Below are positions 16,534-30,064 of a stretch of DNA of 64,000 bases, in pieces. The position numbers and the translations under genes are program-made. Numbering within the stretch: the stretch's first letter is position 1; the number at the start of each line of letters is the position of its first letter. This DNA is from an uncultured Methanosarcinaceae archaeon. Its GTDB lineage: Archaea; Halobacteriota; Methanosarcinia; Methanosarcinales; Methanosarcinaceae. Location: contig CAVRJG010000015.1 of NCBI GenBank assembly GCA_963721455.1, forward strand, positions 32,001 to 96,000. Reading direction: 5' to 3'. The notes under the pieces are model-generated. The model was not told the DNA's origin, made no database searches, and saw only the letters and a program-made list of their open reading frames with translations.

Positions 16534-16702
16534 TCCTGCAGTCTCGTTACTGTTTTTATATGTACTTATTATGGAGTTATAATTTTTTTGCCTTATTGAA
16601 ATTTTTAACGGTGGCAAAAATAGACTTTTGATCAGTAAATTTAATCAGAAACTATTTTTTAGACGGGTTATAATATATATCTACAGGATACTATAAGGGA
16701 AC

Positions 16703-16800
16703 ACAGGTTGAGAGTTTATAGGGTTTCCTCTCAATCTAAAGGGGTTGGGATCATCGATAGGGGCCCGCTAAATGGGAACAAGGCCCTTATCATCTCTTCT
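16703..16800 (+). ncRNA. Putative two-hairpin sRNA, copy 1 (divergent)
   Basis: AGGTTGAGAG/CTCTCAATCT stem, loop TTTATAGGGTTTC; GATAGGGGCC/GGCCCTTATC stem, loop containing AAATGGGAA; promoter motif at 16664-16680. Confidence 0.65.
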
Positions 16801-17110
16801 TATAAACTTTTTTACAGGTATCCTTGATTTTTCTATAGTTCTTTACTCTGCTAACCCTGATACAGGGTTTTTTTGTGTTAAATGAAACACATGAGAAACC
16901 CGGACCTTTTTACGGTTTTTGTTCTCTGGAAGGCAGCTAAAAATATAGTCTTTTACTGAAAATATATACCTTATTTGTAGGTCTAAGAGGTTTTTAACGC
17001 CATTAAAATTTCAGAAGGTAGAAAATTATTCCATTCTATTGAAATTTTAGATCAAAACAGATTTTTTGGAGCGGTTATGATATATATGTACACATGATTA
17101 TAAAATAAAT

Positions 17111-17204
17111 GTAGATTAAGAGTAATAGGGTTTCCTCTTAATCTCTGGGTTGGATCGCAGGTAGGGACCTGAGAATAGGGACTCAGACCCTACCATCTAC
17201 TTCT
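17111..17204 (+). ncRNA. Putative two-hairpin sRNA, copy 2
   Basis: AGATTAAGAG/CTCTTAATCT stem, loop TAATAGGGTTTC; GGTAGGG..CTGAG/CTCAG.CCCTACC stem, loop AATAGGGA; promoter motif at 17072-17087. Confidence 0.72.
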
Positions 17205-17580
17205 ATGCTGCTTCTTCTGCTGATAATTGCTTTTAACGTAGTTACTTCATAACTTCTCTTCTCTGATTATTCCTCTTTTTCATAATGTTTTTAATTTTTA
17301 TAAAGCTTACGATTTTTCCCAGATCTCTAAAGTTCCCCTTATTAACTGCTTTTTTGGATCCCTATGTATTATTTCGAAATTTCCCGAGGGTAGTCAGAAG
17401 AAGGAGCATTTAAATGAAATTTATCTGCAATTTAATATTGTTAATTTTATATTTACATTAAATATTTTGATGCCATTAAAAGTTTCGCTGCAAAATAAAT
17501 GTACAATATGTTTGAAAATTCAAATTACAAATTGTTTTTTGGGTCGGTTATGATATATATCCCCACGTCATCATAAATGT

Positions 17581-17673
17581 ATAGATTAAGAGTAATAGGG
17601 TTTCCTCTTAATCTTTGGGTTGGATCGCTGGTAGGACCTGAGAATAGGGACTCAGACCCTACCATCTACTTCT
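17581..17673 (+). ncRNA. Putative two-hairpin sRNA, copy 3
   Basis: Nearly identical to copy 2 (one G lost in stem 2); promoter motif at 17545-17560. Confidence 0.72.
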
Positions 17674-18153
17674 AAATTAATTTTCAGGAACACTTGCTTT
17701 TTTTCATAATGTCTTTATATTTAATAAACCTTATGACCGTTCCTATATTTTATTTAACCTGTCCGCCACCGCTTCCGAAATAGGCACGACGGGTAAATCT
17801 TTTTGTGCTTATCTACTGACCTCGACACTGAGATATAGTATATTTCTTAGCAGGCTACATGTACAGTTTTTCTTAGTAGACTATGTGTACATGTCTCCTG
17901 TATTTATAGAAAAGACTAGGATTTTTGAGATTGTTAAAATGAAGTATATTGATGAGCGTAATCTTTCTTTCCAGTGCATAGGAGAACGAAAACTTTCCTT
18001 TTTTATCTCATTATGTCTGTATTTGTACTTTACCTGGATTTGCTTCTCGAAGCGGCCTTATTATATCGTTTAAAAAGAGTTTTAAAAAGAGTTTTTCCCA
18101 AAAACCAAAATTTCCACAAAAAATCAAATTGCGTCCGGCCACCCCACCTTGAA

Positions 18154-19881
18154 CAGGCTGTCCGACAATAACCTTCGGTAATAAGAGTTTTCTGCTCAAT
18201 TAGTATGTTGCTTATTATATAATTTTGTGTTGAATATTATTATTTATGGTATTCATCAAATCTTCAAAAAATCAAGCTTGGGCTTTACCTCCAGATATTC
18301 GAGATCTTATTCCTTCAGATCATATCTGCTACTTGGTTGAGTCTTTTGTAGATGAGATGGATTTTAGTGAATTTGAAACAAGGTACGATGGTTCTGGACA
18401 CCCAGCTTATCACCCATGCATAATTTGTAAAATTTTGATTCAATCGATGCTTGATAGAGTTCGATCATCGCGAGCGATAGCTCGCAATGTTCGAGAAAAT
18501 ATAGTTTACATGTATCTGGCTGAAAACCTACAACCTGATTTTAGAACAATCAGTAACTTTAGAAAAGAAAATGAGAAACTGATTACTGAATTATTCAAAA
18601 ACACAGTTAAGGCAGCTAGGGATCTAGGAGTAATAGGTCTTGAGCAGTTAAGCACTGACGGATCCACGGTAAAAGCTTCTGCGTCAAAAAATAATGTGGT
18701 TTTGGAAGAGGTCTTGAGAGTTATTGGAGAATATGTCAACAATGAATTAAAAAAAGGTATTGAAGTAGACAAACTTGAGGATGAACAGTTTGGCAATTGC
18801 CGTGGTTACGATCAATTGAATGAAAATGGAAAATACAAAGTAAAAGCTGTAGTTGCGAAGTACATAAAACAAGTAAATAAGGATAATTCTAATGACCGAA
18901 AAAAAGAGATCAAAGACACAGTTGAAGAAGCACTTGATGAATTTGAAAAAGATAGTATTGAGAAAGTGAGCTTGACTGATAAAGAATCTCGTTTTATGAA
19001 AAACAAAAAGGGAGTATTTGAACTGGCATACAATGCCCAAATAACAGTGGACCATAAATTGGGGATTATTGTTGCAAATGATATCTGTCAAGATAGAACT
19101 GATACTTATCAATTGAAACCACAGATTGAACTTGTAGAAGAAAATTGTGGTTTGCTAAAAGAAGGCACTAAAATATGTGCAGACAGCGGATATTATTGTG
19201 GAAATAACATACATTATTTAAATCATAAGAAATTGGACCCATATATTCCAGAGCAAAAAGAAGTAAATAAAACAATAACAGAAAACATTGAAGACAACAG
19301 ATTCGATATTGGTAATTTTGAGTATAATGAAGAAAATGATGAGTTTATATGCCCTGAAAATCAAAGACTGAAGTTTTTGTATGAGGGTTATGAGAAAGAA
19401 AGGAAGAGAAAATACAGGCTTTATAAGGGAACTGAATGTAAAAAGTGTGAATTTAGTAAAAATTGTACAAAAAGGATAGATGGAGTTAGGCATTTAAAAA
19501 TCGCTGAATTTTCAAAAGAAAGAAAACAATTAGCCGATAAAATGGAAACAGAAGGAGCCAGAAAACTATATGGGCAAAGAAAGCAGGTAGTAGAACCTGC
19601 AATTGGAAATTATAAAGAGAATTTGGGGTTTAGAGAATTTTTAACCAGAGGATTGAAATCAGTCAGGAACGAGTTTAATTTAGTGTGTACTGCAGCTAAC
19701 TTAAGGAAAATATGGATTTACTCAAATAAAAACGAGATCATTAGAAAGAGAAATGGAAATAAATGGAACTTTTCACTTTAAGATTAGAGTAATAAGGAAT
19801 AGAAAACAAATCTCATAAAAAATTCCAATCCACCAGCAGACGATTTTATTTCATTACTAACAGTAATTGTCGGACAGCCTG
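18154..19881 (+). mobile_element. IS1182-family insertion sequence, 1728 bp
   Basis: Perfect 16-bp terminal inverted repeats CAGGCTGTCCGACAAT (18154-18169 / 19866-19881); 4-bp target duplication TGAA (18150-18153, 19882-19885). Confidence 0.92.
18246..19781 (+). CDS. IS1182-family DDE transposase
   Basis: GHPAYHP...SSRAI...PDFRTISNFRK N-terminal domain; DGSTVKASAS, ADSGY, RKQVVEPAIG. Confidence 0.93.
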   Translation: MVFIKSSKNQAWALPPDIRDLIPSDHICYLVESFVDEMDFSEFETRYDGSGHPAYHPCIICKILIQSMLDRVRSSRAIARNVRENIVYMYLAENLQPDFRTISNFRKENEKLITELFKNTVKAARDLGVIGLEQLSTDGSTVKASASKNNVVLEEVLRVIGEYVNNELKKGIEVDKLEDEQFGNCRGYDQLNENGKYKVKAVVAKYIKQVNKDNSNDRKKEIKDTVEEALDEFEKDSIEKVSLTDKESRFMKNKKGVFELAYNAQITVDHKLGIIVANDICQDRTDTYQLKPQIELVEENCGLLKEGTKICADSGYYCGNNIHYLNHKKLDPYIPEQKEVNKTITENIEDNRFDIGNFEYNEENDEFICPENQRLKFLYEGYEKERKRKYRLYKGTECKKCEFSKNCTKRIDGVRHLKIAEFSKERKQLADKMETEGARKLYGQRKQVVEPAIGNYKENLGFREFLTRGLKSVRNEFNLVCTAANLRKIWIYSNKNEIIRKRNGNKWNFSL

Positions 19882-19927
19882 TGAAAGGTGGGGTATGCTT
19901 CGGGCCGGCCGCCGATTTCTCGGGTAC

Positions 19928-20392
19928 TTAGAAATCATCTAGACTTAGTTGTCCAGATTTCTTTAATCTACTCGATCGAAACTTTTTCTTTGTTTTTCCC
20001 TGGGAATCGTTAATGTACTGCTTGATTGTGTCTGCAGTCACATTTCCAATGGATCTATAGAACTTGCCATTTGACCATAGACTTCCACCCCAATACTTTT
20101 TCCTCAATTCTGGATAAAGCTTGAACAATCTGTAAGAACTGCCTCCTTTTAGGTGCTGAAGTACCTCGGATAATGAGGTGCTTGGATGGAATTCCAGGAA
20201 CAAGTGCACATGATCCTCTACCACTTCCATGGCATGTATTTTATAGCCTTTCTCGGTACAAATGTTGTTGAGGATTGATTCGCAACCCTTTTTAACTCTC
20301 TTATTGTAGAATATTCTGTATCTATACTTAGGCACCAATACAATGTGGTAGGCAATTTGACCATAGCCATGGCTAAAACTACGCAATTCCAA
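19928..20392 (-). CDS. tnpA: IS200/IS605-family Y1 transposase
   Basis: YHIVLVPKYR, HUH motif DHVHL, LKGGSS, catalytic Tyr in IKQYI. Confidence 0.93.
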   Translation of the reverse strand: MELRSFSHGYGQIAYHIVLVPKYRYRIFYNKRVKKGCESILNNICTEKGYKIHAMEVVEDHVHLFLEFHPSTSLSEVLQHLKGGSSYRLFKLYPELRKKYWGGSLWSNGKFYRSIGNVTADTIKQYINDSQGKTKKKFRSSRLKKSGQLSLDDF

Positions 20393-20633
20393 TGCTTATC
20401 ACATCCTGGCCATAGGTGGCTGGCACCGCCTATGGCTATGGTGTCAAAAAACCTCATATTAGAAAGAACTACGGTTTTATCGATTTTTTAAGGAGCATAT
20501 AGAAAAGCCAGCGAGGGTTCACTTCATCCCCAACTTGAAAGTTGGGGTATTCGTGACCCTCCGCGCTCCCTAGTAATAAAAGGAAATTTATATTTATACC
20601 TGGAAAAATTTTGATGCTATTAGAAGTTTTAGC

Positions 20634-20684
20634 AATAACAAAAATAAGTAATAACAAAAATAAGTAACAACAAAAATAAGTAAC
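20634..20684. repeat. 16-bp tandem repeat, about 3 copies
   Basis: AATAACAAAAATAAGT x3. Confidence 0.8.
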
Positions 20685-20756
20685 CTAAGCAAATTTTAAA
20701 TTACAAATTGTTTTTTGGATCGGTTATGATATCTAACCCCATCGTTATAAACTCTG

Positions 20757-20850
20757 GTAGATTGAGAGTAATAGGGTTTCCTCTCAATCTCTGGGTTGGA
20801 TCGCAGGTAGGGACCTGAGAATAGGGACTCGGCCCCTGCCAACTACTTCT
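20757..20850 (+). ncRNA. Putative two-hairpin sRNA, copy 4
   Basis: AGATTGAGAG/CTCTCAATCT (compensatory G-C where copies 2/3 have A-T); stem 2 kept through G-T pairs; same loops; promoter motif at 20721-20736. Confidence 0.72.
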
Positions 20851-21312
20851 AGACTAATAAACTACTTTTAAACTAATATTGCCTTTTAGCAAACACTTTC
20901 AAAAGTACTTTACACAAGCCTCTCTTTTTCTTACAATGTATTCAGCTGTAATAAAGCTTATGATTGATTTCAAACATATGCATAAATTTAATTATCCGTT
21001 TTTGTTGTGGAAAATTAGGCCTCATGCGTGCGTTTTTTAGAGATTTCCACTTCTCAAGAGCAATTTTCTGGAGAAGACAAATCTGCAAAAAAGGTATGTC
21101 TTCGAAAAAGGTATGTTTTCGAATCTCATCCTTCGCACTAAATTTGGGGATATAGGTAAATCAAAAACGCAACGCTATTGTAAAGACTATACAAAACAGC
21201 TCTTTTAAAAAGGCACTCTCTTCATAATACAATCTCTCTTTTTATACTATATGTCTAAATAAAATTCCGGCATTGACTACAAATTTAAGTTGCTAATAAT
21301 TATTGTCAAGTT

Positions 21313-27921: not shown

Positions 27922-30064
27922 GTGCGACAAGAAGCTATGCTATGAATTGCGGAAACGCTACCTCTTCCATTTGAGGTAATCCTACTGTGACATGCATAAA
28001 TGGCAACGTTTGTGTGTGAAGCTCACAAGACAATATCAAGAAATCAAGGAGCCTGACTTTGATAATTGGTTAGGATAAGAATACTATGAAGAACGTAAAG
28101 TGAACCATCGTAAAAATCGTGAAGCAGAATGAGCGAAAACAGGTTGACACGCTCAAACCAAAAGGTATAGAATCAGGTCATAATGGATCTGCCGACATTA
28201 TGGCAAATGGACAAATGGTTCTCGGTTTACAGATGGCTTCTAAGGTATTCATATTATTCATGGTATGGAACTTGGTAAACCCTATATGCTCCTTTAAAAA
28301 AAAAGGTAGAGACCCTGTGAAGGGAATTAATTGCATAGAGGGTAGAGGATTCAAGCAAAAAGCGAATGTCATTCTGTAATGGAATGGATAGGGGTTCAAA
28401 CTTTGCCCTAGCCTGAAAGGGTGCAGACTTGCTTATTTGGTGTTCTATTGTATGAAAGGAGGCAAACTTCTGAATGTAAGTATTTCAACGATATCCTCTC
28501 AGGATAAGAAGCTTACAGACGCTTCCCTCTTCCAGAGATGGAAAACTATTGACTGGAATCAAGTAGAGAAGAGTGTTAATAAGTTGCAAACCCGAATTAC
28601 AAAAGCAGTAATGCAAAACAAATGGAACCATGTCAAGAGATTGCAGTATCTCCTAACTCATTCCTATTTCGCCAAACTCTTGGCAGTAAGAAGAGTTACT
28701 CAAAACAAAGGAAAAAGGACATCTGGAATTGATGGTGAAAAATGGCTAACTTCAAGCTCCAAAATGAAAGCTGTCCTTAGTCCTACTGGTAAAAGATACA
28801 AAGCTAAACCCCTGAAACGAGTCTTCATTAATAAGCCTGGTAAGAAGAAGAAACGTCCCTTAGGTATCCCTACAATGTATGACAGAGCTATTCAATCTTT
28901 ATATGCATTAGCTCTCGAACCCATAGCTGAAACAATGTCTGACCTGAGGTCTTTTGGATTTCGAAAGCACCGAAGTACCAAAGATGCATGTCAGCAAATC
29001 TTTTTGTGTTTAAGCAAGAAGAACTCGGCCCAATGGATCTTAGAAGGCGATATCAAAGGATGTTTCGATAATATAAATCATCAGTGGTTGTTGACTAACA
29101 TTCCTATAGAAAAATCAGTACTGACTCAATTTCTTAAAGCAGGTTTCATTTACAAACATCATCTGAATCCAACAAAAGCAGGTACGCCACAAGGTGGGAT
29201 AATCTCCCCCATTTTGGCAAATATGACATTGGACGGCATCGAGAAGTTACTTATGGCTAAATACCCAAAAAGAGGTAGTATGTCTCCCAAGGTTAACTTC
29301 ATCCGTTATGCTGATGATTTCATAGTCACTGCTAATTCAGAAGAATCTGCCAGAGAAATTAGGGACATAATTACTGCTTTTCTCAAAGAACGAGGTCTTG
29401 AACTATCTGATGACAAAACCCTGATCACAAATATTAATGAGGGCTTTGATTTTCTCGGCTGGAATTTCCGCAAGTACAATGGTAAGCTTCTGATCAAGCC
29501 TTCCAAGAAGTCCATTAAAAGGTTTACTGAAACAATCAGTCAAACCATAACGAAAGGAATGGCATGGTCTCAGGAAGTCTTAATTACCAAATTAAACCCC
29601 ATAATAAGAGGTTGGACCAATTATCACAATTCAGTGGTCTCCTCGGACGTATTCCAGATCCTTGATCATAGAATCTGGGAGCTGCTATGGATATGGGCTA
29701 AAAGAAGACATCCGAACAAATCCAAAGATTGGATTGTCAACAAATATTGGAAAAGAAGCACCTCAAGAAGATGGAATTTCAGAACCGAGAGAAATGGGTT
29801 ACTGCTTCTTTCAAAAACCAGAATCTACAGACACATTCCTTTAAAGCTGCAAATGAATCCATTTCTTGATCCGGATTATTTTCACGAACGTTCAAATAAA
29901 TTAAGTTTCCGGAAAAGTCAATCCATTTGATTAATTATTTGAAAAAAAAAAAGACTGCTGCCTGATACAGAAAAGGTTATAGAATGCTTGAGCCGGATGC
30001 GTCGAAAGGCGCACGTCCGGTTCTTAGAAGAGGGAGAGCGAGTAATCGCTCTTTCTTATTTGAC
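27922..30064 (+). mobile_element. Group II intron (IIB-type, probably chloroplast-like class), intergenic
   Basis: 5' GTGCG at 27922; EBS1 CTGCCG (28189-28194) in a hairpin loop pairs with IBS1 CGGCAG; EBS2 AGGATAA (28072-28078) pairs with TTATCCT; DV GAGCCGGATGCG-TCGAAAGG-CGCACGTCCGGTTC (~29990-30023); DVI ends ...TTATTTGAC. Confidence 0.93.
28452..29930 (+). CDS. ltrA: Group II intron reverse transcriptase/maturase, no HNH endonuclease domain
   Basis: RPLGIPT, DIKGCFDNI, GTPQGG, RYADD, maturase LNPIIRGWTNY; start uncertain (ATG 28452 or CTG 28470). Confidence 0.93.
   Translation: MKGGKLLNVSISTISSQDKKLTDASLFQRWKTIDWNQVEKSVNKLQTRITKAVMQNKWNHVKRLQYLLTHSYFAKLLAVRRVTQNKGKRTSGIDGEKWLTSSSKMKAVLSPTGKRYKAKPLKRVFINKPGKKKKRPLGIPTMYDRAIQSLYALALEPIAETMSDLRSFGFRKHRSTKDACQQIFLCLSKKNSAQWILEGDIKGCFDNINHQWLLTNIPIEKSVLTQFLKAGFIYKHHLNPTKAGTPQGGIISPILANMTLDGIEKLLMAKYPKRGSMSPKVNFIRYADDFIVTANSEESAREIRDIITAFLKERGLELSDDKTLITNINEGFDFLGWNFRKYNGKLLIKPSKKSIKRFTETISQTITKGMAWSQEVLITKLNPIIRGWTNYHNSVVSSDVFQILDHRIWELLWIWAKRRHPNKSKDWIVNKYWKRSTSRRWNFRTERNGLLLLSKTRIYRHIPLKLQMNPFLDPDYFHERSNKLSFRKSQSI

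What the first reader, a model, noticed from the sequence alone, without database searches (positions are those of the whole stretch)
16660..20850. Array of four paralogous two-hairpin non-coding RNAs displaying AUAGGG loops (candidate undescribed sRNA or protein-sponge system)
Seen: four ~95-nt ORF-free units (16703, 17111, 17581, 20757) with the same architecture: hairpin 1 with loop U(A/UU)AUAGGGUUUC, a GGGUUGG linker, hairpin 2 with loop AAUAGGGA (AAAUGGGAA in copy 1), then CUUCU. Stem 1 covaries: AGATTAAGAG/CTCTTAATCT in copies 2-3 versus AG(A/G)TTGAGAG/CTCTCAATCT in copies 1 and 4. Stem 2 of copy 1 has a very different sequence but still forms 10 bp. Mismatches are mostly G-T on the + strand, consistent with RNA G-U pairing and + strand transcription. 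Loops are conserved while stems drift, which suggests selection on RNA structure. Inference: redundant sRNAs presenting a repeated GGG motif in loops resemble bacterial CsrB/RsmY/RsmZ, which titrate CsrA through GGA loops. They could sequester an archaeal RNA-binding protein or pair with CCCUAU mRNA targets. I cannot exclude a match to an already catalogued Methanosarcina sRNA.
Basis: partly seen in the sequence, partly recalled or inferred. Interest (0 to 1): 0.88.

Follow-up and report, generated by a model that had tools for sequence, protein, structure and literature searches.

The report
Multi-copy small RNA gene family
The four repeats are genes of a conserved, many-copy family of small structured non-coding RNAs found throughout this methane-producing archaeal genus, each with its own promoter, whose cellular job is still unknown.

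Summary
Four ~100-120-nt units lie on the + strand at about 16705, 17113, 17583 and 20759, each with two hairpins and G-rich loops.

They belong to a large family. A covariance model finds 1-21 copies in 57 of 59 genomes of the genus. It also finds copies in two sister genera, and none in 13 other genera of the family. No Rfam family matches.

Both hairpins show compensatory changes. G-U pairs are fixed on the + strand. A TATA-like motif ends 21-25 nt before hairpin 1 in 45 of 51 copies. A T-run follows within 26 nt in 42 of 51. Each window copy groups with positional orthologues in other genomes, so the array is old. Copy 1 belongs to a second subfamily, and a third lies elsewhere in the genome.

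The units are not mobile-element ends, and CsrA is absent (0 of 59). Transcription was not shown here.

Function is inferred. The likeliest mode is trans-acting base pairing through loop 1 (GGGUUUCCUCU), possibly masking ribosome-binding sites. The argH and homocysteine-synthesis leads do not exceed controls. A protein decoy remains a serious rival. I could not check the M. mazei sRNA catalogues.

The parts
16668..16680 (+). TATA-like promoter element of copy 1 (TTATAATATATAT)
   Evidence: Read. It ends 24 nt before hairpin 1. The family motif is present in 45 of 51 copies, 21-25 nt upstream. Promoter function is inferred.
16705..16813 (+). Copy 1 RNA body (subfamily B): hairpin 1 at 16705-16737, linker, hairpin 2 at 16756-16791, tail, T6 run at 16808-16813
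   Evidence: 84.2 bits. It groups with positional orthologues in G002 and G045 with 100/100 support.
17075..17087 (+). TATA-like promoter element of copy 2 (TTATGATATATAT)
   Evidence: In this genome the motif occurs only at family copies.
17113..17234 (+). Copy 2 RNA body (subfamily A): hairpin 1 at 17113-17144 (loop 17123-17134), linker, hairpin 2 at 17160-17194 (loop AATAGGGA at 17174-17181), tail, first T4 run at 17231-17234
   Evidence: 115.2 bits. Groups with L009:2019 and L007:2001 with 100/99 support.
17548..17560 (+). TATA-like promoter element of copy 3
   Evidence: It ends 22 nt before hairpin 1.
17583..17684 (+). Copy 3 RNA body (subfamily A), hairpin 1 from 17583, hairpin 2 ending at 17663, T4 run at 17681-17684
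   Evidence: 112.3 bits. A 1-nt deletion in stem 2 relative to copy 2 keeps the pairing but not a reading frame.
18141..19894 (+). Insertion sequence that interrupts the array between copies 3 and 4: 42-nt terminal inverted repeats at 18141-18182 and 19853-19894, DDE transposase at 18246-19781
   Evidence: inverted repeat I1, 83% complementary; DDE_Tnp_1_6, DUF772. It is not part of the RNA family.
19928..20392 (-). IS200-like Y1 transposase gene, a second insertion between copies 3 and 4
   Evidence: Y1_Tnp, E 1.2e-37.
20724..20736 (+). TATA-like element of copy 4 (TTATGATATCTAA, two substitutions)
   Evidence: It ends 22 nt before hairpin 1.
20759..20869 (+). Copy 4 RNA body (subfamily A, G-C variant of stem 1), T4 run at 20866-20869
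   Evidence: 112.7 bits. It falls in a 15-row group (96/84 support) that also holds the last-in-array copies of other genomes.

Best explanation
The four units are genes of a family of small non-coding RNAs, about 100-120 nt long, that spans the genus (probably Methanosarcina; the name is inferred).

Inferred from sequence:
- Each unit is transcribed on the + strand from its own TATA/BRE-type promoter.
- Transcription starts at or within a few bases of hairpin 1 and ends at an oligo-T run.
- In some genomes two units are joined head to tail behind a single promoter.

Shown here:
- Family membership, covariation in both hairpins, promoter and terminator motifs, old positional orthology, and three subfamilies.
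- The subfamilies share an invariant core: hairpin 1 with loop GGGUUUYC, plus the linker GGGUUGRAUC.

Inferred mechanism:
- The RNAs act in trans as redundant 'sibling' riboregulators.
- The exposed G-rich loop 1 starts base pairing, which extends into the 3' strand of stem 1 (CCUCU, resembling an anti-Shine-Dalgarno sequence).
- This would cover Shine-Dalgarno and spacer regions of target mRNAs and block translation initiation, as reported for the M. mazei sRNAs 162, 154 and 41.
- Candidate targets are argH and a homocysteine-biosynthesis (HcyBio-CBS) gene. Both are unproven.

I put about 0.9 on 'real structured RNA gene family' and about 0.45 on the base-pairing mechanism. The confidence figure given is for the whole statement.
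For: Family and distribution:
- 57 of 59 genomes of the genus carry it (39 of 39 high-quality genomes), with 1-21 copies each.
- By genus: 34/34, 2/2 and 6/6 in three genera, and 0 of 108 genomes in 13 other genera.

Structure:
- In 51 sequences, 95.4% of cells are paired against 36-53% when partners are slid. 11 pairs have changes on both sides against 5.1 in shuffles, and 0 of 500 shuffles reach the observed value.
- In 28 more diverged sequences, hairpin 1 has 7 of 10 pairs with double-sided changes (98.8% paired). The basal stem of hairpin 2 has 5 of 7 (95.4% paired).
- Three pairs are G-U in 41-49 of 50 sequences on the + strand. On the other strand these would be A-C mismatches.

Transcription signals:
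- The motif TTATGATATATAT (up to 2 substitutions) occurs in 45 of 51 copies and ends 21-25 nt before hairpin 1. In this genome it is unique to the family.
- A T4+ run lies within 26 nt downstream in 42 of 51 copies. The sites at about +94 to +106 fit first units of head-to-tail dimers, one of which was read.

Evolution:
- The paralogues are old. Copies 1 and 2 group with positional orthologues in G002 and G045 at 100/100 and 100/99 support.
- Frame-breaking indels argue against coding.

Pairing lead:
- AAGAGGAAACCC lies directly before the ATG of argH and of the HcyBio-CBS gene. It is fully complementary to window 17128-17139.
- These were the only two 12-nt matches among 2979 start regions.
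- In the HcyBio gene, most variants across the genus are A-to-G changes that keep G-U pairing. Outgroup genera without the RNA lack the AAACCC spacer.

Precedent: RBS masking by M. mazei sRNAs is described in passages of PMC5867862 and PMC3510493.
Against: - No transcript, 5' end or strand was shown. The metatranscriptome contigs are sparse, and one runs from upstream of the predicted start.
- Target prediction gives nothing above controls. The best loop-1 duplex is -22.8 kcal/mol, against -24.7 for the reversed and -23.0 for the shuffled query.
- Complement k-mers are not enriched in 5' regions.
- RGRGGRRRCCC next to a start codon occurs 3 times, against 2-16 times for control trinucleotides.
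- Genus-wide conservation of positions -14 to -1 is 0.87 for argH and 0.79 for HcyBio. Four neighbouring control genes give 0.58-0.99, so the leads are not more conserved.
- About 12 of 29 argH sites carry AAAACC, which breaks the 11-mer.
- Five of the twelve pairing bases lie inside stem 1.
- Conservation covers stem, loop and linker (more than 25 nt) across three genera. That is more than a seed usually needs and fits a protein or RNP partner at least as well.
Confidence: 0.45

Rival explanations
1. The RNA binds or sequesters a protein, acting as a decoy or RNP scaffold. The invariant hairpin 1 plus linker module is the binding platform for an RNA-binding protein found in this genus and its two sister genera. 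The repeated G-rich loops, multiple gene copies and head-to-tail dimers would provide multivalency. It would work like CsrB/RsmZ or 6S RNA without belonging to those families.
For: - Sequence, not only structure, is conserved over stem 1, loop 1 and the linker in all three subfamilies and three genera.
- UAGGG-like motifs occur three times per A-type unit.
- Variants with hairpin 1 and linker only exist, so this module can stand alone (L055-L058).
- Dimers lack an internal promoter.
- No convincing mRNA targets were found.
Against: - No partner is identified. CsrA is in 0 of 59 genomes. RRM_1 is in 0 of 42 genomes of the three RNA-bearing genera. DUF1699, a recurrent neighbour, is in 16 of 16 genera and so is not co-restricted.
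- No protein gene is consistently adjacent across loci. Neighbours differ: decarboxylase, PAS kinase, LysE, MEDS, FilR1-type regulator.
Confidence: 0.3
2. One or more members are an sRNA already catalogued or characterised in M. mazei, for example the RBS-masking sRNA41. In that case the finding is a rediscovery, plus the recognition that it belongs to a multi-copy family.
For: - M. mazei dRNA-seq reported about 199 intergenic sRNAs, most of them conserved in other methanogens (passages of PMC4152357).
- A conserved RNA driven by its own promoter would probably have been detected.
- sRNA41 is described as masking ribosome-binding sites (passages of PMC5867862). The anti-SD-like CCUCU next to loop 1 fits that description.
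Against: - It is neither sRNA154 nor sRNA162 by description. sRNA154 is reported at one locus (between MM3337 and MM3338) with an NrpR operator GGTA-N6-TACC in its promoter (PMC3177094). sRNA162 is 191 nt with three stem-loops and one homologue (PMC3510493).
- Full-text searches for the two loop sequences, as DNA and as RNA, found 0 papers.
- Searches for multicopy, sibling or tandem sRNAs in Methanosarcina found nothing relevant.
- The family is not in Rfam 15.
Confidence: 0.3
3. The units are DNA-level repeats, such as a MITE, transposon ends or a protein-binding DNA repeat, and not RNA genes.
For: - Copy number varies from 1 to 21 per genome.
- In the window the array sits among insertion sequences.
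Against: - No terminal inverted repeats or target duplications flank the units (one search finds only the IS ends).
- Positions are syntenic across genera, and copies are positional orthologues.
- Compensatory changes and fixed, strand-specific G-U pairs indicate an RNA.
- The conserved promoter and T-run are asymmetric around the unit.
- No match in the phage or plasmid collections.
Confidence: 0.03

Closest known systems
Multicopy 'sibling' sRNAs of bacteria, such as LhrC1-5 of Listeria and Qrr1-5 of Vibrio. Named from recall; review PMC4211561 and paper PMC4132741 were seen only as search listings.
   Same: Several near-identical paralogues, some in tandem. Each has its own promoter. A short motif is repeated in hairpin loops. 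The suspected action is at ribosome-binding sites.
   Different: The host is an archaeon with a TATA/BRE promoter and an oligo-T terminator. The loops are G-rich rather than C/U-rich. Up to 21 copies occur, and there are promoter-less head-to-tail dimers. No targets or chaperone are known. No sequence or Rfam relationship exists.
M. mazei sRNA162/sRNA171, sRNA154 and sRNA41
   Same: Probably the same genus. They are intergenic sRNAs with conserved stem-loops. Masking of ribosome-binding sites is the reported mechanism (passages of PMC5867862 and PMC3510493). sRNA162 and sRNA171 are a duplicated pair.
   Different: sRNA162 is 191 nt with three stem-loops. sRNA154 has an NrpR operator and is reported at a single locus. 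Here the units are ~105 nt with two hairpins, occur in many copies, and carry their own distinctive promoter.
CsrB/RsmY/RsmZ protein-sponge RNAs
   Same: A short G-rich motif is repeated in hairpin loops. Several redundant genes exist. A titration role is conceivable.
   Different: The motif is GGG in AUAGGG or GGGUUU, not GGA. There are only 2-3 motifs per unit. CsrA is absent from 59 of 59 genomes. No Rfam hit.

Membership tests
Any described RNA family (Rfam 15) | Match to a curated covariance model | tested here: not met
   At gathering thresholds over the whole window only group II intron models matched, at 27959-30064. With E up to 10 over 16600-20900 there were two unrelated weak hits, SCARNA7 and sau-6072, and neither lies on a unit.
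Csr/Rsm sponge RNAs | The partner protein CsrA/RsmA is encoded in the genome | tested here: not met
   PF02599 was found in 0 of 59 genomes of the genus. The control search found it in E. coli, B. subtilis and T. maritima.
Csr/Rsm sponge RNAs | Many GGA motifs in hairpin loops | tested here: not met
   The loops read AUAGGGUUUC and AAUAGGGA, with two loops per unit.
MITE / transposon ends | Terminal inverted repeats and target-site duplications; non-syntenic, dispersed insertion | tested here: not met
   The only long inverted repeat belongs to the IS at 18141-19894. The units keep their synteny next to the PLP decarboxylase gene in 14 loci, including a sister genus, and they are positional orthologues.
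Structured non-coding RNA gene | Base pairs kept through compensatory changes | tested here: met
   11 pairs with changes on both sides, and 0 of 500 shuffles reach the observed value; 25 pairs with such changes. Hairpin 1 is 98.8% paired and the basal stem of hairpin 2 is 95.4% paired. The outer closing helix is weak (67.7%) and the apical helix is weak in diverged members (53.8%).
Structured non-coding RNA gene | Own promoter and terminator | tested here: met
   The TATA-like motif is in 45 of 51 copies, 21-25 nt before hairpin 1. A T4+ run lies within 26 nt in 42 of 51. These are motif matches; function was not assayed.
Structured non-coding RNA gene | A transcript of the predicted size and strand exists | tested here: inconclusive
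   Only metatranscriptome contigs were available. They touch 17504-17654, 17165-17337 and 17137-17209, and they cannot show ends or strand.
Base-pairing, RBS-masking sRNA (sRNA162/sRNA41 type) | Complementarity to translation-initiation regions beyond chance, conserved together with the sRNA | tested here: inconclusive
   12-nt perfect matches lie at the argH and HcyBio-CBS start regions. Motif counts equal those of controls. Energies equal those of controls. Conservation equals that of control start regions.
Catalogued M. mazei sRNAs (sRNA41, 154, 162 and others) | Sequence or coordinate identity with a published sRNA | not testable with these tools
   Jager 2009, Prasse 2017 and Prasse & Schmitz 2018 are not held, and supplements are closed. 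Text descriptions of sRNA154 and sRNA162 do not fit.

The most novel reading that the evidence does not exclude
The family is a multivalent decoy or RNP RNA specific to this genus and its two sister genera.

In this reading, the invariant hairpin 1 plus linker module is bound by an unidentified RNA-binding protein or by the small ribosomal subunit. The genome's own 16S 3' end reads GUAGGGGAAUCUGCGGCUGGAUCACCUCCU. That weakly echoes the UAGGG loops and the UGGAUC linker of the sRNA.

Arrays, up to 21 copies and head-to-tail dimers would then set the titration capacity. This would be an archaeal counterpart of Csr/Rsm-type sequestration without CsrA.
Probability: 0.2. Interest if true: 0.85.

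Novelty: new member of a known kind. Interest (0 to 1): 0.62.

Why it matters
Few archaeal regulatory RNAs have a known family structure, and almost none are known as conserved multi-copy sibling families.

This family offers several things:
- a ready covariance model;
- clear promoter and terminator anatomy;
- three subfamilies with an invariant core module;
- defined genomic loci in a genetically tractable group of methanogens.

That makes several questions directly testable: why an archaeon keeps 4 to 21 copies of one small RNA for long evolutionary times, whether it acts by RBS masking or by protein titration, and whether it ties into amino-acid metabolism. The last point rests on its neighbours and candidate targets, which are a permease and PLP decarboxylase, LysE, argH and homocysteine synthesis.

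If members are already in the M. mazei catalogue, the new part is the family, its structure and its distribution.

Tried and rejected
1. RRM partner for the UAGGG loops. RRM_1 was found in 1 of 151 genomes of the family, in a genus that lacks the RNA. Rejected.

2. CsrA partner. Found in 0 of 59 genomes. Rejected.

3. DUF1699 as a co-restricted partner. It is present in 16 of 16 genera. Rejected.

4. Functional coupling to the neighbouring PLP decarboxylase.
- Its orthologue is also in two genera without the RNA (31/34 and 11/11) and was not found in one genus with the RNA (0/2).
- Six loci downstream of that gene in those genera hold no relative, searched with filters off; best E 0.2.
- The link is synteny only.

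5. Genome-wide antisense targets.
- Exact complements of 9-10 nt are few and scattered.
- Short-word blastn found no extended complementarity. The best matches (a 17-nt identity in a large gene and its paralogue, a 13-nt one in two copies of another gene) are sense-strand identities inside predicted coding regions.
- C15:178500-178800 is a coding GGGTTGGATC-like repeat and is unrelated.
- rRNA operon complements are 7-mers at most within the rRNAs.

6. Loop-based target prediction on 2988 crudely called 5' regions gave nothing above the reversed or shuffled queries.

7. Complement k-mers in 5' regions are not enriched.

8. The argH and HcyBio leads do not exceed controls.

9. A shared regulon through the upstream motifs. 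The promoter and upstream blocks occur only at family copies in this genome.

10. Phage and plasmid collections: no match.

11. Public RNA runs.
- Only Logan contigs of four metatranscriptomes were available.
- The decarboxylase gene is covered. Most of the array has no cover, which proves nothing.
- A 151-nt contig covers 17504-17654, so it starts upstream of the predicted start site. Another covers 17165-17337 and runs past the first T-run. Two cover 17137-17209.
- None of this shows transcription, ends or strand.

12. The search for related loci with ArgH returned no loci of the genus, only distant genera and bacteria. I used the genome search instead.

13. The order-level hit in g27 lies in coding sequence and is a false positive. 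The g6 hits (E 6.3e-4 and 2.5e-3) share the stem-1 sequence and GGGUUGG and may be remote relatives. This is unresolved.

14. Literature.
- Searches found no description of this family.
- I read only passages (find mode) of PMC5867862, PMC3510493, PMC4152357, PMC3177094, PMC11456600, PMC9170634, PMC8116511 and bioRxiv 10.1101/2025.10.28.685009.
- Buddeweg et al. 2018 (sRNA41) appeared only as a citation. I did not request it by id.
- Supplements are closed. The M. mazei sRNA coordinate tables, which could settle whether members are catalogued, were not seen.

Full report
OBSERVATION

The features are as follows.
- Hairpin 1 is a 10-bp stem. It reads AGATTAAGAG/CTCTTAATCT in copies 2 and 3, and AGGTTGAGAG or AGATTGAGAG with CTCTCAATCT in copies 1 and 4.
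- Its loop has 12-13 nt and ends in ATAGGGTTTC.
- The linker is GGG(G)TTGG(G)ATC.
- Hairpin 2 has the loop AATAGGGA in copies 2-4. In copy 1 it has a different 10-bp stem and a 16-nt loop (CGCTAAATGGGAACAA) that contains AAATGGGAA.
- The tail carries CTTCT.

nhmmer with a profile of the four finds only these in the 3.94-Mb assembly, at E 1.9e-43 to 2.1e-34. It also finds one diverged fifth copy on another contig at E 2.9e-4 (C45, held as L001:2943-3049).

Single-sequence folds give the two hairpins but only modest z-scores, -1.4 to -2.6.

Two minus-strand ORFs of 46 and 48 aa overlap copies 3 and 4. Nothing comparable overlaps copies 1 and 2. Indels of 1-2 nt between copies and orthologues keep the pairing but not a reading frame.

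A FAMILY, NOT A LOCAL ARRAY

No Rfam 15 model matches the units, either at gathering thresholds over the window or at E up to 10 over 16600-20900.

A covariance model built from the five copies (R1) gave these results.
- It finds matches in 57 of 59 genomes of the same genus, and in 39 of 39 of the high-quality genomes. There are 1 to 21 matches per genome. The two genomes without a match are 60% and 79% complete.
- In a sample of 151 genomes of the family, it hits 34/34, 2/2 and 6/6 genomes of three genera. It hits none of the 108 genomes in the 13 other genera.

A second model covers only hairpin 1 plus the linker (R2). At order level it adds only weak hits in one further genus: 2/2 genomes, at E 6.3e-4 and 2.5e-3. 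These hits share the stem-1 sequence and GGGUUGG. It also gave one false positive inside coding sequence.

Alignments show three subfamilies.
- Subfamily A: window copies 2, 3 and 4.
- Subfamily B: window copy 1, and most copies in the two sister genera.
- Subfamily C: the C45 copy, whose hairpin-2 loop reads AUCAGAGGUGGC.

All three share hairpin 1 with loop ...GGGUUUYC and the linker GGGUUGRAUC. AUAGGG is not invariant. In one sister genus there are shorter versions with hairpin 1, the linker and an immediate T-run (L055-L058).

RNA-LEVEL CONSTRAINT

On 51 aligned members (50 distinct):
- 95.4% of cells form standard pairs, against 36-53% when the 3' partners are slid by 1-3 columns;
- 11 pairs carry changes on both sides, against 5.1 in shuffles;
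- 0 of 500 shuffles reach any of the five measures.

These sequences are related and were aligned to the model, so the counts lean towards the structure.

On the 28 more diverged members:
- hairpin 1 has 7 of 10 pairs with double-sided changes and 98.8% pairing;
- the basal stem of hairpin 2 has 5 of 7 and 95.4%;
- the outer helix closing the 3' domain is poorly supported (67.7%), as is the apical helix of hairpin 2 in diverged members (53.8%).

Three pairs are G-U in 41-49 of 50 sequences on the + strand. This points to the + strand as the RNA.

GENE ANATOMY

Promoter:
- The motif TTATGATATATAT (up to two substitutions) is present in 45 of 51 copies.
- It ends 21-25 nt before the first base of hairpin 1, most often 22 nt. 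That is the usual distance between an archaeal TATA box and the start site; this comparison rests on established knowledge and was not tested here.
- The six exceptions are: the second unit of a dimer; the C-type copy, which has a different TATA-like box; two truncated copies; one copy with three substitutions; and L002, which lies just after what may be coding sequence (not checked).
- In this genome the motif and two further conserved upstream blocks occur only at family copies.

Terminator:
- A run of four or more T follows within 26 nt of the model's end in 42 of 51 copies.
- The offsets of about 94-106 nt fit first units of head-to-tail dimers, which share one promoter and one T-run. One such dimer was read directly (L021).
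- Only 4 of 51 copies have a T4 run inside the body.
- Such dimers, with matches overlapping by 6-10 nt, appear in at least 13 genomes in the listings.

The predicted RNAs in the window are about 16705-16813, 17113-17234, 17583-17684 and 20759-20869.

CONTEXT AND HISTORY

The array lies between an amino-acid permease plus a PLP decarboxylase of the Orn/DAP/Arg type on one side, and a 2-oxoacid:ferredoxin oxidoreductase on the other.

The decarboxylase is next to family copies in 14 of the fetched loci, including loci of a sister genus. However, the gene also occurs in two genera that lack the RNA, and it was not found in one genus that has the RNA. The link is therefore synteny, not co-occurrence.

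Other recurrent neighbours are a PAS/HisKA_2 kinase (7 loci), LysE (5 loci), a MEDS protein (3 loci) and, for the C-type copy, a FilR1/ArsR-type regulator (7 loci).

Between copies 3 and 4 sit two insertions:
- an insertion sequence with 42-nt terminal repeats (18141-19894, DDE transposase);
- an IS200-like transposase gene.
The units themselves have no terminal repeats.

A maximum-likelihood tree of all 51 copies with their flanks shows:
- copy 1 with copies from G002 and G045 (100/100 support);
- copy 2 with the second copies of the same genomes (100/99);
- copy 3 closest to a G045 copy (92% identity over 280 columns; no starred clade);
- copy 4 in a 15-row group (96/84) that also holds the last-in-array copies of other genomes.

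The four paralogues are therefore older than these species and have been kept separately.

There is no match in the phage or plasmid collections.

FUNCTION

Tests of the decoy reading:
- CsrA is absent (0 of 59).
- RRM proteins are absent from the three RNA-bearing genera.
- DUF1699 is ubiquitous.

Tests of base pairing:
- Loop-centred duplex energies against 2988 crudely called 5' regions are no better than for reversed or shuffled queries.
- Complement k-mers are not enriched.
- No long antisense match exists.

One lead emerged.
- The 12-mer AAGAGGAAACCC lies directly before the ATG of argininosuccinate lyase and of a homocysteine-biosynthesis (HcyBio plus CBS) gene.
- It is perfectly complementary to GGGUUUCCUCUU, which is the 3' part of loop 1 plus the 3' strand of stem 1 (window 17128-17139). 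These were the only two such matches in 2979 start regions.
- Across the genus the HcyBio site is mostly AAGAGGAAACCC, or variants with A-to-G changes that keep G-U pairing.
- The argH site is AGAGGAAACCC in about half of the genomes and AGAGGAAAACC in the rest.
- Outgroup genera without the RNA lack the C-rich spacer.

The controls do not support the lead.
- The motif class next to a start codon is no more frequent than classes with other trinucleotides: 3 against 2-16.
- Positions -14 to -1 of four neighbouring control genes are as conserved as those of argH and HcyBio: 0.58-0.99 against 0.87 and 0.79.

I keep it as a lead only.

The precedent is RBS masking by M. mazei sRNAs 162, 154 and 41. 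I saw this in passages of PMC5867862 and PMC3510493.

EXPRESSION

Only metatranscriptome contigs could be laid. A few contigs touch copies 2 and 3. They do not show ends, strand or transcription.

KNOWN OR NEW

The family is not in Rfam. Six full-text searches found no description of it.

By their text descriptions, sRNA154 and sRNA162 do not fit.
- sRNA154 is reported at one locus and has an NrpR operator in its promoter.
- sRNA162 is 191 nt with three stem-loops.

The primary catalogue papers and all supplements were unavailable. I therefore cannot exclude that individual members carry sRNA numbers in M. mazei, sRNA41 included.

VERDICT

This is a real and well-supported family of structured small RNA genes with an unusual multi-copy and dimer organisation. 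As far as I could check it is undescribed as a family. Its function is unknown. Trans-acting base pairing at ribosome-binding sites is my preferred mechanism, at about 0.45. A protein or ribosome decoy is the main rival.

Noticed in passing
window 27959-30064: A group II intron. Rfam models match domains D1-D4 (27959-28069, 69.8 bits) and the catalytic domain (29988-30064, 56.8 bits). A 497-aa ORF at 28437-29930 lies between them and is presumably the intron-encoded protein.
   Followed up: no
window 18141-19894: An insertion sequence with 42-nt imperfect terminal inverted repeats and a 511-aa DDE transposase. One metatranscriptome contig joins 18148 to 19889 with 8 other letters in between, so relatives without this insertion exist.
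   Followed up: partly
window 19928-20570: An IS200-like Y1 transposase gene on the minus strand, with G+C-rich palindromic sequence beside it (about 20400-20560). No TnpB-like gene lies next to it.
   Followed up: no
window 20631-20683: Three tandem copies of a 16-nt unit (AGYAAYAACAAAAATAAGTAA register) lie just upstream of copy 4's promoter. The other copies carry a conserved upstream block (..CATTAAAAGT..) at that position.
   Followed up: no
L001:2943-3049 (own genome, contig C45): A fifth, diverged family member (subfamily C). It has its own TATA-like box and a hairpin-2 loop containing GAGGUG. It is divergently placed next to a FilR1/ArsR-type regulator gene, and this arrangement recurs in 7 loci, including a sister genus.
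   Followed up: partly
L021:2179-2380 and at least 12 other genomes: Head-to-tail dimers of the RNA unit with one promoter and one T-run. This suggests ~200-nt precursors or bivalent RNAs.
   Followed up: partly
L011:1233-1349 and L006:1250-1371: Truncated or degenerate family copies between the decarboxylase gene and the first full copy. Hairpin 1 is intact, hairpin 2 is replaced by unrelated sequence, and the usual TATA motif is absent. They may be decaying subfamily-B copies.
   Followed up: no
L055-L058 (sister genus g13): Short variants with hairpin 1, the linker and an immediate T-run (about 60 nt), next to DUF1699 genes. DUF1699 itself is multi-copy (13 matches in the window's genome) and is present in all 16 genera sampled.
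   Followed up: partly
L079:1525-1580 and L078:1504-1561 (genus g6): A possible remote relative. A hairpin with the same stem sequence (GAUUGAGAG/CUCUCAAUC) and loop ..AAAGGG.. is followed by GCGGGUUGG. The genome-wide E-values are only 6.3e-4 and 2.5e-3.
   Followed up: partly
own genome C15:178500-178800 (outside the window): A stretch of degenerate GGGTTGGATC-like repeats whose words match the RNA's linker. Its context was not examined; I take it to be unrelated.
   Followed up: partly
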